Origin: an uncultured Gammaproteobacteria bacterium
GTDB lineage: Bacteria; Patescibacteriota; Patescibacteriia; Magasanikbacterales; UBA922
Length of the DNA: 64,000 nucleotides
Assembly (NCBI GenBank): GCA_964418775.1
Contig: CAYQNA010000005.1
Span: forward strand, 3,066-67,065
Direction: 5' to 3'
The translations under genes were made by a program, and so were the position numbers. Positions 43,701 through 44,900 of the stretch are shown piece by piece (the first letter of the stretch is position 1; every line of letters starts with the position of its first letter). Below the pieces are notes generated by a model. That model did not search any database and was not told the DNA's origin. It saw only the letters and a program-made list of their open reading frames with translations.

Positions 43701-44900
43701 ATGGAATTATTGCCCCAGGACTTGGCCGGTTCGCTGCGCTGGGTTGGCTCGGCATTGCTTATTGCCGGAACAACCTGGTATTTGTTTGCGCGTCGCAACG
43801 AGGGTGGGGGCAGTAAGTTTTCGGTAGGGCGCAGTAATTCAGTCACGCCAACACTTGATTTGTTCGCGTTGGATTTAACGCAGGCAGCCAAGGAGGGGCG
43901 GATTGATCCAGTCGTGGGGCGCGACGAGGAAATTGCGCGTGTGACCCAGGTTCTTACCCGTCGTACCAAAAATAACGTGATTTTAATGGGGCCGCCAGGG
44001 GTTGGTAAGACGGCAATTGTCGAGGGGCTGGCGCTTAAGATTGTTACGGGTGATGTGCCGCCAATTTTGGCTGGCAAGCGTTTGCTCTCTTTGCAAATTG
44101 CCGAATTGTTGGCCGGTACGAAATACCGTGGTGAGTTTGAAGAGCGCATAAAACATTTGGTTGAAGAGCTTCGTCAGTCTGACCGCACCGTAATTTTGTT
44201 TATTGATGAAATTCACACGGTCATGCAGACGCGTGGCGCCGAGGGGTCAGTGCATTGGTCTGATATTTTAAAACCAGCCCTGGCGCGCGGTGATTTACAA
44301 TTGATTGGCGCTACCACTGAGAAAGAGTACCAACAATATATTCAACCTGAAGAAAGCTGGGACCGTCGTTTCCAGCCGGTTTTGGTTGACGAACCGACTG
44401 TCAATGAATCAATTAAAATCTTGCACGGCGTAAAAAAGAATTACGAAACATTCCACCGGGTTACGTTTACTGACGATGCGCTCAGTGCAGCCGTACGTTT
44501 GTCGGCCGAATATATCAAGGGTCGTCGTTTGCCTGATAAAGCGATTGACGTGATTGACGAAGCTGCGGCGATGATTAATGTGCAAAACGGCAATCATGAC
44601 CATGCGGCGGCGCTTTTACATGGCGCTGGTGCGCGCGCGGCGGCTAAAAATGGCCCCGATGAGTCAGTTGAAGTGGAAAAATTAAAAGCCAAATTGGCCA
44701 AACTTCAAGATGACGAGGACAAAACCACTGATGAAAAAAGTTTGCGCCAATTGCGCCGCGAGATTGTGAGTGTGGTAAAATTAATTGAGACCCAAGAGAA
44801 AAAAGAGCGCGCGTCCGCGGGTTGGCCAACCGTAACCGTGGACCATGTGAAAGAAGTCGTGGCTGATTGGGTGGGCGTAAAGATTAAGGATATTCACTAG
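43701..44900 (+). CDS. Membrane-anchored Clp/Hsp100-type AAA+ ATPase containing only the D1 module
   Basis: 399 aa; N-terminal TM; [47 protein letters not shown] nearly identical in pattern to ClpB/ClpC D1; ends where D2 would begin. Confidence 0.7.
   Translation: [399 protein letters not shown]

What the first reader, a model, noticed from the sequence alone, without database searches (positions are those of the whole stretch)
43701..44900. Membrane-anchored Clp/Hsp100 ATPase reduced to a single D1 AAA+ module
Seen: an N-terminal TM helix replaces the Clp N-domain. The D1 Walker A/B region is near-identical in pattern to ClpB/ClpC ([43 protein letters not shown]). The ORF stops where D2 should start, and the next gene is an unrelated secreted protein. 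It is flanked by genes for secreted proteins at 42917 and 44902. Inference: either a decayed clpB/clpC pseudogene or a genuinely minimal membrane-tethered unfoldase working with neighbouring envelope proteins.
Basis: partly seen in the sequence, partly recalled or inferred. Interest (0 to 1): 0.55.

Follow-up and report, generated by a model that had tools for sequence, protein, structure and literature searches.

The report
Membrane-anchored single-ring ClpC-like ATPase
This is an intact gene, conserved in many ultra-small (Patescibacteria/CPR) bacteria, for a protein-unfolding motor that keeps only the first of the two ATPase rings of ClpC/ClpB and is tethered to the cell membrane by one helix, a layout I found described nowhere for this protein family.

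Summary
Window 43701-44900 (+) encodes a 399-aa protein with these parts:
- a short N-terminal tail and one transmembrane helix followed by a basic patch;
- a Gly/Ser linker;
- a complete Clp/Hsp100 D1 AAA+ module, whose best match is B. subtilis ClpC residues 144-490;
- a ClpC-type M-domain hairpin and the last D1 helix, followed by a stop codon.

No D2 remnant occurs in the window or in 20 related loci.

It is not a pseudogene or a frameshift:
- At least 101 clusters (90% identity) share the layout: TM helix, D1, and an end about 9 residues after a conserved Trp. They come from Magasanikbacteria, Uhrbacteria, Doudnabacteria, Kerfeldbacteria and others.
- dN/dS against the closest relative is 0.05.
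- All catalytic, pore-loop and arginine-finger residues are invariant.
- The family is monophyletic in a tree of D1 cores.

Most likely it forms a membrane-tethered hexameric threading motor whose entry face points at the membrane. This is the logic of Msp1 or FtsH, but without a protease or a ClpP-docking loop. The function is inferred, not shown.

The link to neighbouring envelope proteins is weak. Flanking genes share an N-terminal signal motif in the Magasanikbacteria-type loci, but distant family members have unrelated neighbours.

Verdict: a new variant of a known kind, of moderate interest.

The parts
43694..43698 (+). Shine-Dalgarno-like AGAGG, 2 nt upstream of the ATG
   Evidence: Read directly from the sequence.
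43701..44900 (+). Complete gene (399 aa plus TAG stop) for the membrane-anchored D1-only ClpC-like AAA+ protein
   Evidence: ORF. Domain and family matches. Conserved family. dN/dS 0.054.
43701..43739 (+). Residues 1-13: short acidic N-terminal tail, predicted to lie outside the cytoplasm
   Evidence: Across 101 relatives the net charge before the helix is -0.7, against +2.2 after it. The orientation follows from the positive-inside rule and is inferred.
43740..43790 (+). Residues 14-30 ([17 protein letters not shown]): single transmembrane helix that takes the place of the Clp N-domain
   Evidence: Hydrophobicity scan of the family. AF2 predicts a helix at residues 6-34. The helix is conserved in position but not in sequence across the family.
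43791..43844 (+). Residues 31-48: basic patch (RR) followed by a Gly/Ser-rich flexible linker
   Evidence: pLDDT is below 50 for residues 34-47. Length and sequence vary in the family alignment.
43845..44396 (+). Residues 49-232: D1 large AAA+ subdomain
   Evidence: Pfam AAA. Aligns to ClpB model positions 150-399 and to the ClpC D1 region. dN/dS for residues 49-300 is 0.028.
43989..44012 (+). Walker A motif GPPGVGKT (residues 97-104)
   Evidence: G97, G100, V101, G102, K103 and T104 are invariant in 30 family members.
44121..44132 (+). D1 pore loop 1, KYRG (residues 141-144)
   Evidence: K141, Y142, R143 and G144 are invariant. The same motif occurs in ClpC and ClpB D1 (alignment).
44193..44210 (+). 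Walker B motif ILFIDE (residues 165-170)
   Evidence: I165, L166, F167, D169 and E170 are invariant.
44307..44318 (+). Sensor-1 region GATT (residues 203-206)
   Evidence: All four residues are invariant.
44364..44369 (+). Arginine-finger pair R222-R223, part of RRFQ
   Evidence: R222, R223, F224 and Q225 are invariant. The assignment rests on homology to the ClpB/ClpC D1 'ERRFQ' motif (alignment).
44400..44627 (+). Residues 234-309: D1 small (lid) subdomain
   Evidence: Pfam AAA_lid_9, E = 2.3e-27.
44601..44630 (+). Residues 301-310 ([10 protein letters not shown]): a motif conserved in both the long and short forms of this family, with no counterpart in the aligned B. subtilis ClpC sequence
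   Evidence: H301, A302, L305, L306 and A309 are invariant or nearly so. The ClpC sequence aligned at these positions differs. Model confidence is low here. Function unknown.
44667..44819 (+). Residues 323-373: M-domain-like antiparallel coiled-coil hairpin. Present in the ~390-400 aa 'long' forms and deleted in the ~335-345 aa 'short' forms
   Evidence: AF2 predicts helices at 323-341 and 345-373. The region aligns with the ClpC M-domain. Presence or absence is visible in the family alignment. dN/dS for residues 301-375 is 0.13.
44826..44897 (+). Residues 376-399: last D1 element ([22 protein letters not shown]), equivalent to ClpC ~470-490. The family ends here
   Evidence: Alignment to ClpC. 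W390 is invariant and the median tail after it is 9 residues in 99 relatives.
42917..43684 (+). Upstream neighbour (16-nt gap): 255-aa predicted secreted or anchored protein, CARDB-like, with the shared N-terminal motif. A possible client or partner; the link is unproven
   Evidence: ORF. Weak CARDB hit. Motif HMM E = 4e-6, but this protein was itself a seed, and it was not recovered by the leave-window-out model.
44902..46065 (+). Downstream neighbour (start 1 nt after the AAA stop): 387-aa predicted secreted or anchored protein with a long basic N-region and the motif TTKLALALTFLGASFLAASAA. A possible client or partner; the link is unproven
   Evidence: ORF. No Pfam or NCBIfam hit. It is the top hit among 367 window ORFs with a motif HMM built without window sequences, E = 0.04.
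41390..42856 (+). Uncharacterised multipass membrane protein ('c4'; the true start is probably downstream of the listed TTG). A homologue lies next to the AAA gene, on either side, in 7 loci
   Evidence: Synteny clustering. Alignment A2 has 60 invariant positions. No Pfam, NCBIfam or PDB sequence match.

Best explanation
The gene encodes an intact, vertically inherited, Patescibacteria-specific derivative of ClpC. An ancestral ClpC-like gene lost its N-domain and its whole D2 ring and gained one N-terminal transmembrane helix.

Proposed mechanism:
- The helix inserts N-out/C-in, so the ATPase sits in the cytoplasm on a linker of about 20 residues.
- Six copies form a single D1 ring. The arginine fingers and Walker motifs are intact.
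- Because the anchor is at the N-terminus, the substrate-entry face of the ring points at the membrane.
- The ring grips exposed cytoplasmic segments of membrane or envelope proteins with its KYRG pore loops and pulls them through, unfolding or extracting them.
- It has no protease domain and no ClpP-docking loop, so the product would be released to other chaperones or proteases.

Shown here: the architecture, its conservation, purifying selection, intact motifs and the absence of D2. Inferred: topology, hexamer formation, threading, orientation and the identity of substrates.
For: Architecture and homology.

Evolution:
- At least 101 of the 120 best hits share TM + D1 + the same C-terminus.
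- A 30-sequence alignment has 90 invariant columns, including Walker A and B, the pore loop, sensor 1 and the Arg fingers.
- dN/dS is 0.054 overall, 0.03 in D1, 0.09 in the TM/linker and 0.13 in the coil.
- All 26 TM-anchored D1-only sequences form one clade among 164 D1 cores, with full-length ClpC-like proteins as sister.
- The family is found in Magasanikbacteria, Uhrbacteria, Doudnabacteria, Kerfeldbacteria and 'Paceibacter' records.

Topology: charge asymmetry of +2.2 after the helix against -0.7 before it.

No D2 in cis.

No ClpP loop: no conserved [ILMV]G[FL] tripeptide.

The D1 core is conventional: only 3 family-specific substitutions relative to 85 full-length relatives.

Precedent: a single N-terminal TM helix plus one AAA ring acts as a membrane-protein extractor in Msp1/ATAD1 (PMC9273213).
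Against: - No biochemical or expression data exist.
- From established knowledge of Hsp100 proteins, isolated D1 modules of some family members (for example T. thermophilus ClpB) oligomerise poorly, and B. subtilis ClpC needs the adaptor MecA to form hexamers. A D1-only ring is therefore not guaranteed, although membrane tethering could compensate.
- No partner gene is conserved across the whole family, so substrates are unknown.
- I could not determine whether these genomes also keep a full-length ClpB/ClpC, ClpP, or a separate D2 protein (one search was uninformative).
- The tree is a neighbour-joining tree without bootstrap support.
Confidence: 0.6

Rival explanations
1. It is a decayed clpB/clpC pseudogene, or an assembly or sequencing frameshift that truncates a full-length gene.
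For: The ORF stops exactly where D2 should begin. Automatic annotation labels relatives 'ClpA/ClpC'.
Against: The same length and end point occur in at least 101 clusters from independent assemblies. dN/dS is 0.054. All catalytic residues are invariant. No D2-like sequence occurs in any frame of the window or of 20 related loci. The downstream ORF starts 1 nt after the stop and is unrelated.
Confidence: 0.01
2. It is a split Hsp100. D2 is encoded elsewhere in the genome as a separate polypeptide and assembles with this D1 ring to rebuild a two-tier, membrane-bound ClpC/ClpB-like machine that may be able to bind ClpP.
For: The conserved terminal D1 helix and the conserved C-terminal '...EIH' end could be a docking surface. 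Stand-alone D2-only ORFs of 320-400 aa exist on large contigs in public data, taxon unknown. From general knowledge, split ClpB halves can reassemble in vitro.
Against: No D2 gene lies within about 10 kb in the window or in 20 of the loci held; L021-L023 were not scanned, and their called genes carry no D2-type Pfam domain. No D2-only protein attributable to Magasanikbacteria or Uhrbacteria was seen, but that search could not have shown one reliably.
Confidence: 0.1
3. It is not an autonomous motor. It is a membrane-tethering or regulatory subunit that co-assembles with a soluble full-length ClpC/ClpB of the same cell, recruiting that machine to the membrane or tuning it.
For: The D1 core is almost indistinguishable from full-length D1s, with only 3 family-specific substitutions, so mixed rings are conceivable. 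One short-form member lies next to hrcA-grpE-dnaK-dnaJ.
Against: The family is monophyletic and at most 65% identical to full-length D1s. All motor residues, including the pore loop, are under strict conservation, which a passive tether would not need. Whether a full-length partner exists in these genomes is unknown.
Confidence: 0.12
4. It is a dedicated handler for the adjacent surface proteins (export quality control, signal-peptide or anchor extraction, or turnover) rather than a general membrane-protein quality-control motor.
For: In the 64-kb window, the only two ORFs the N-terminal motif model matched directly flank the gene (both were seeds of that model), and all motif hits with E < 1e-3 among 406 ORFs of the window plus 20 loci lie within three genes of it. 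A model built without window sequences still ranks ORF 44902 first of 367. The gaps are 16 nt and 1 nt, with no promoter-like site in between. The long basic cytoplasmic N-regions of these proteins would be accessible handles.
Against: The loci are phylogenetically related, so the adjacency may be inherited synteny of a fast-evolving surface-protein cluster. The motif test is partly circular. Distant family members (L005, L016-L018, L020-L023) have other neighbours. The leave-out E-value is only 0.04, and ORF 42917 was not recovered.
Confidence: 0.15

Closest known systems
ClpC (B. subtilis MecB, S. aureus ClpC, M. tuberculosis ClpC1), a class-I Clp/Hsp100 unfoldase
   Same: The D1 AAA+ module is 38-57% identical over the aligned region, with identical Walker A/B, KYRG pore loop, sensor 1 and RRFQ arginine fingers. 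It has a short one-hairpin M-domain inserted in the D1 small subdomain and the terminal D1 helix.
   Different: It has no Clp N-domain (the adaptor- and phospho-arginine-binding module), no D2 ring and no ClpP-docking loop, and it carries an N-terminal transmembrane helix instead. It scores far below the NCBIfam full-length cut-offs.
ClpB/Hsp104 NBD1
   Same: A high-scoring D1 match: TIGR03346 gives 365 bits over model positions 150-399, and there is a PDB match to 4hse, the isolated ClpB NBD1.
   Different: ClpB has a long two-wing M-domain that binds DnaK, plus D2. Here the coil is short and ClpC-like, or absent altogether in the short forms.
Msp1/ATAD1 (eukaryotic membrane-protein extractase)
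   Same: The overall design matches: one N-terminal TM anchor, a short linker, a single AAA ring and no protease. Msp1/ATAD1 removes membrane proteins by threading (PMC9273213).
   Different: It belongs to a different AAA+ clade (classical/meiotic AAA, not Hsp100 D1) and is eukaryotic, with no detectable specific sequence relationship. The resemblance is analogy only.
FtsH
   Same: It is membrane-anchored at the N-terminus, and its cytoplasmic AAA ring faces the membrane and pulls membrane proteins out (established knowledge).
   Different: FtsH has two TM helices, a periplasmic domain, a classical-clade AAA module and a fused M41 zinc protease. The match to the FtsH model is marginal (24.5 bits) and there is no peptidase domain.
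Single-ring Hsp100 relatives: ClpX, HslU, Skd3/CLPB, plastid ClpM
   Same: Each has only one AAA+ module per subunit.
   Different: Those are D2-type modules. [quoted passage not shown] This family retains D1 instead.

Membership tests
Class-I Clp/Hsp100 (ClpA/ClpB/ClpC) | Two tandem AAA+ modules (D1 and D2) in one polypeptide | tested here: not met
   There is a single Walker A and the protein ends at the position equivalent to ClpC ~490. No D2 is found in any frame.
Class-I Clp/Hsp100 (ClpA/ClpB/ClpC) | D1-type AAA+ module with an AAA_lid_9 lid, KYRG pore loop and RRFQ arginine fingers | tested here: met
Class-I Clp/Hsp100 (ClpA/ClpB/ClpC) | N-terminal Clp_N repeat domain | tested here: not met
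   No Clp_N Pfam hit. Only about 48 residues precede D1, and they comprise a TM helix and a linker.
Class-I Clp/Hsp100 (ClpA/ClpB/ClpC) | Full-length score above the curated NCBIfam cut-off (ClpB 1232, ClpA 993, TssH 885 bits) | tested here: not met
   Scores are 365, 337 and 331 bits.
ClpC subfamily | Short coiled-coil M-domain inserted in the D1 small subdomain | tested here: inconclusive
   A helical hairpin at residues 323-373 is predicted and aligns with the ClpC M-domain region. There is no UVR Pfam hit, and the element is absent from short-form family members.
ClpP-partnered unfoldases (ClpA/ClpC/ClpX) | Conserved [ILMV]G[FL] ClpP-docking loop | tested here: not met
   No conserved tripeptide of this kind in 30 family members. 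In ClpA and ClpC the loop lies in D2, which is missing here.
FtsH | C-terminal M41 zinc-metalloprotease domain fused to the AAA module | tested here: not met
   No peptidase domain. The FtsH model scores 24.5 bits against a cut-off of 1008.
Msp1/ATAD1 | Classical-clade AAA module homologous to Msp1 | tested here: not met
   The best relatives are all Hsp100 D1 modules. Only the architecture (N-terminal TM plus a single AAA ring) is shared.
TM-anchored D1-only ClpC-like family (defined here) | An N-terminal TM helix followed by a basic patch, a single D1 module, an end about 9 residues after the conserved Trp, and a single clade in the D1 tree | tested here: met
   101 of the 120 best hits meet the criteria. 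The window protein is the first row of alignment A1. 26 of 26 sequences fall in one clade.
TM-anchored D1-only ClpC-like family (defined here) | ATP-dependent hexameric threading activity | not testable with these tools
   Only motif conservation and a monomer model are available.

The most novel reading that the evidence does not exclude
A lone Hsp100 D1 ring tethered to the membrane is a self-sufficient translocase. Together with the adjacent uncharacterised multipass membrane protein, it forms a dedicated CPR system. That system would handle a family of cell-surface proteins marked by a long basic N-region and the conserved 'T-x-K-[LM]-A-[LIV]-A-x-x-F-L-G-x-A-x-x-A-A' signal, for example by extracting their anchors or signal peptides or by controlling surface-protein turnover. 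If so, it would be a new kind of envelope-protein handling machine, and a counter-example to the pattern that single-ring Hsp100 derivatives keep D2.
Probability: 0.12. Interest if true: 0.75.

Novelty: new variant of a known kind. Interest (0 to 1): 0.5.

Why it matters
All well-known single-ring relatives of Hsp100 (ClpX, HslU, Skd3/CLPB, plastid ClpM) keep a D2-type module, and D2 is usually regarded as the main motor. A widespread, strongly conserved natural protein that keeps only D1 would be a ready-made test of what a D1 ring can do on its own.

It would also be a bacterial counterpart, from the Hsp100 lineage, of the Msp1/ATAD1 type of membrane-protein extractor.

For CPR/Patescibacteria, which have tiny genomes and depend on their cell surface for an episymbiotic life, it points to a lineage-specific piece of membrane proteostasis that current annotation hides under 'ClpA/ClpC/AAA family ATPase'.

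Tried and rejected
Both were negative.
- Look-up of the window protein's own contig: not on record.
- Testing whether Magasanikbacteria also have a full-length ClpB/ClpC or a D2-only partner, by searching 5.8 billion proteins with the D2 of the sister-clade protein P0133: the top 120 hits were fragments from many phyla, with Dojkabacteria closest. Uninformative, and the question stays open.
- The AlphaFold-database fold library was unavailable.
Profile searches of that protein against PDB, Pfam and NCBIfam gave nothing.
- Search for a universally conserved operon partner: none. In the Magasanikbacteria-type loci the neighbours are housekeeping synteny (methyltransferase, YraN, NusA, YidC) plus variable surface proteins, and they are unrelated in the Uhrbacteria, Doudnabacteria and other loci.
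- A putative membrane HExxH protein directly upstream in one subclade (L017 and L020, and one gene removed in L016) has no homologue in the window, so it was not used as evidence for this locus.
- Literature searches for a description of this family found nothing.
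Full report
**1. What is there**

Window 43701-44900 (+) is a 399-codon ORF with an ATG start. It is preceded by AGAGG, and its TAG stop is followed one base later by the ATG of the next ORF.

- Pfam finds an AAA core (residues 93-206) and the D1-specific lid AAA_lid_9 (residues 234-309, E = 2e-27).
- NCBIfam aligns the protein only to the D1 part of ClpB (model positions 150-399 of 853; 365 bits against a cut-off of 1232), ClpA and TssH.
- The best solved relative is B. subtilis ClpC/MecB, residues 144-490. That region covers the N-D1 linker, D1, the M-domain and the last D1 element 'VTVDDIAMVVSSWTGVPVSK'. 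In the window protein the last element reads '[22 protein letters not shown]' and is followed by the stop.
- An AlphaFold2 model built on a 30-sequence alignment (mean pLDDT 78.8) shows an N-terminal helix at residues 6-34, a disordered linker, the alpha/beta D1 core, the helical lid, a helical hairpin at 323-373 and a final helix. Its top Foldseek matches are ClpC, ClpC1 and ClpB chains.

The one refinement is that a ClpC-type M-domain hairpin is retained.

**2. Is D2 hiding somewhere?**

- Three real D2 domains, taken from the nearest full-length relatives, also give only that weak P-loop paralogy in the window and in the 20 related loci then held, each with up to 10 kb on either side of the gene.
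- The two downstream ORFs have no Pfam or NCBIfam family.

**3. Pseudogene or conserved gene?**

A search of 5.8 billion proteins returned only proteins of 324-411 aa in its top 120, apart from a 288-aa fragment and one over-extended gene call. They are 52-88% identical to the window protein. Most that carry a name are from Candidatus Magasanikbacteria, labelled 'AAA family ATPase', 'ClpA' or 'ClpC/MecB'.

- 101 of the 120 meet strict criteria: one Walker A, D1 starting at residue 57-88, a hydrophobic 17-mer before it, and a median of 9 residues after the conserved Trp.
- A 30-sequence alignment has 90 invariant columns. These include Walker A (G97...K103, T104), the pore loop K141-Y-R-G144, Walker B D169-E170, sensor 1 G203-A-T-T206 and R222-R223-F-Q.
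- There are two sub-types. The long form (~390-400 aa) has the ~55-residue coiled coil; the short form (~335-345 aa) lacks it. Both keep the motif 'HAxALLHGAA' and the C-terminal '...W.G....IH'.
- Nei-Gojobori dN/dS against the closest relative (L006, 88% aa identity) is 0.054 overall: 0.03 in D1, 0.09 in the tail/TM/linker and 0.13 in the coil.
- A scan of 1.84 billion cluster representatives (clustered at 50% identity) adds more divergent members with the same layout: P0123, P0127, P0128, P0129, P0132, P0134, P0140 and P0209. The source names for three of them are Uhrbacteria, Doudnabacteria and 'Patescibacteria group'.
- Genome records add Kerfeldbacteria and 'Paceibacter'.
- In a neighbour-joining tree of 164 D1 cores, all 26 TM-anchored D1-only sequences form one clade without intruders. 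Its sister group is full-length ClpC-like proteins (P0133, P0266). The D2 of P0133 is closest to Dojkabacteria Clp proteins.

The pseudogene and frameshift readings are excluded. The simplest history is one truncation-plus-anchor event within Patescibacteria, followed by vertical descent.

**4. Topology and geometry (inferred)**

Before the hydrophobic helix the tail is short and acidic. After it come Arg/Lys residues. Across the family the net charge is -0.7 before the helix and +2.2 after it. By the positive-inside rule this gives an N-out/C-in orientation, with the ATPase in the cytoplasm.

From established structures of Hsp100 proteins, substrate enters at the N-terminal face of D1. With the anchor only about 20 residues upstream of D1, that face should look at the membrane, as in FtsH and Msp1/ATAD1 (PMC9273213). 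The D1 core differs from 85 full-length relatives at only three family-specific positions (R162, D188, P216). No ClpP-docking [ILMV]G[FL] loop is conserved.

**5. Surroundings**

Clustering the ORFs of the window and 20 loci shows a conserved housekeeping order in the Magasanikbacteria-type loci:

SIS/PGI-like - 80-aa protein - methyltransferase - YraN - [multipass protein 'c4'] - [secreted protein] - AAA - [secreted proteins / c4] - NusA - YidC

- The c4 protein (window 41390-42856) is adjacent, on either side, in 7 loci. It has no Pfam, NCBIfam or PDB relative.
- The secreted neighbours belong to different sequence clusters, some CARDB-positive. They share an N-terminal motif: a long basic/polar region followed by 'T-x-K-[LM]-A-[LIV]-A-x-x-F-L-G-x-A-x-x-A-A'.
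- All HMM hits with E < 1e-3 among 406 ORFs lie within three genes of the AAA gene, and in the 64-kb window only the two flanking ORFs match. This test includes its own seed sequences.
- A model built without window sequences still ranks ORF 44902 first of 367, but only at E = 0.04, and it does not recover ORF 42917.
- Gaps of 16 nt and 1 nt, and the absence of a promoter-like site until just before nusA, suggest co-transcription.

Against a dedicated system, more distant members sit in unrelated contexts:
- next to hrcA-grpE-dnaK-dnaJ (L005);
- next to EamA, a glycosidase-like protein and a membrane protein with an HExxH motif (L016, L017, L020);
- next to UvrD/Wzy_C, CorA or RuvB (L021-L023).

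No partner is conserved across the whole family.

**6. Best explanation and rivals**

I conclude that this is a genuine membrane-anchored, single-ring, ClpC-D1-type AAA+ protein. It most probably acts as a hexameric threading motor on cytoplasmically exposed parts of membrane or envelope proteins, and it has no built-in or docked protease.

- That it is a real, selected protein family is close to certain.
- That it is an active ATPase and threading motor is likely, because every motor residue is invariant.
- The membrane-extraction role is a reasoned inference. My confidence in the statement as a whole is about 0.6.

Rivals that remain open:
- a trans-encoded D2 partner (about 0.1);
- a tethering or regulatory subunit for a soluble full-length ClpC/ClpB (about 0.12);
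- a dedicated handler of the adjacent signal-motif proteins (about 0.15; this is a sub-case of the main model).

Whether the same genomes retain ClpB, ClpC or ClpP could not be tested with the tools available.

**7. Comparison with what is known, and novelty**

By homology this is a ClpC D1 module. By architecture it fails the defining class-I Hsp100 features: two AAA+ modules, an N-domain and the curated score cut-offs. By design it resembles Msp1/ATAD1 and the AAA part of FtsH, but it belongs to a different AAA+ clade.

Known single-module Hsp100 relatives are D2-type. A 2026 preprint states that when one domain is retained 'it is invariably D2' (10.64898/2026.05.20.726455).

Seven literature searches found no description of this family. 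Databases carry it only under generic automatic names.

I rate it a new variant of a known kind, interest about 0.5. It is not spectacular on present evidence, but it is a clean, testable natural experiment on what a D1 ring can do alone, and a candidate lineage-specific membrane proteostasis factor in CPR bacteria.

Noticed in passing
window 42917-43684 and 44902-46065; L001 9297-12833; L008 4480-5787; L012 11204-11752; L013 12227-13360; L015 13193-17305; L019 11272-13659: Genes next to the AAA gene belong to different sequence clusters. They still share a conserved N-terminal signal: a long basic/polar N-region followed by 'T-x-K-[LM]-A-[LIV]-A-x-x-F-L-G-x-A-x-x-A-A'. It may be a lineage-specific sorting signal or a shared signal-peptide cassette.
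   Followed up: partly
window 41390-42856; L006 7424-9100; L008 1693-3135; L010 11268-12677; L011 1242-2573; L013 8262-9671; L015 11647-13128: A conserved multipass membrane protein of about 470-560 aa with 60 invariant positions (for example GFGYDTGIYRH and YAPWLYG) has no Pfam, NCBIfam or PDB match. It lies next to the AAA gene on either side in 7 loci. The listed TTG start overlaps the YraN-like ORF at 41104-41460 and is probably too far upstream.
   Followed up: partly
L016 5017-5796; L017 9162-9935; L020 6926-7702: In a distant subclade the gene just upstream of the D1-only ATPase (one gene removed in L016) is a 258-aa multipass membrane protein with a conserved 'VVHE[LF]SHLLGAL' (HExxH) motif and no Pfam or NCBIfam hit. 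It is possibly a membrane zinc protease, which together with the ATPase would resemble a split FtsH. It is absent from the window.
   Followed up: partly
protein P0122 (749 aa; relatives P0269-P0272, contigs up to 383 kb): A Clp-like protein made of two tandem D1-type modules (two 'GR..E..R......R..KNN...G..GVGKTA' units, each with an LPDKA/NPDKA-type lid) and no D2. This is another unusual Hsp100 architecture.
   Followed up: no
L005 1435-5793 and 8001-9029: A short-form family member lies just downstream of an hrcA-grpE-dnaK-dnaJ heat-shock operon, separated from it by one divergently oriented 667-aa gene.
   Followed up: no
L005 13446-15959; L018 (c65, 837 aa); L022 603-3194: A VirD4/TrwB-like coupling ATPase (DUF8128 + TrwB_AAD_bind) lies 2-5 genes from the D1-only gene in three divergent loci.
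   Followed up: no
L006, L011, L012, L014, L020 (record titles): Several TPA MAG records titled 'uncultured Gammaproteobacteria bacterium' carry this Patescibacteria-type gene, and L006 and L012 also share the Magasanikbacteria-type gene order. The organism labels look wrong.
   Followed up: no
window 18221-18294 (-) and 6667-6739 (-): A tRNA-Ile with anticodon UAU, confirmed by Rfam, is uncommon in bacteria. ARAGORN also calls a tRNA-Gly with anticodon ACC that does not reach the Rfam threshold and may be spurious.
   Followed up: no
proteins P0282, P0300, P0362, P0390, P0394, P0399: D2-only Clp-like ORFs of 320-400 aa sit on large contigs (24 kb to 3.7 Mb), so they are probably not contig-end fragments. 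Taxon unknown. They are relevant to the idea of split Hsp100 genes.
   Followed up: no
window 51312-53263 (+): A groES-groEL-like pair (97 and 546 aa, judged from the N-terminal sequences), and a UvrA-like 938-aa ORF at 20387-23203 (-). Not verified with family models.
   Followed up: no
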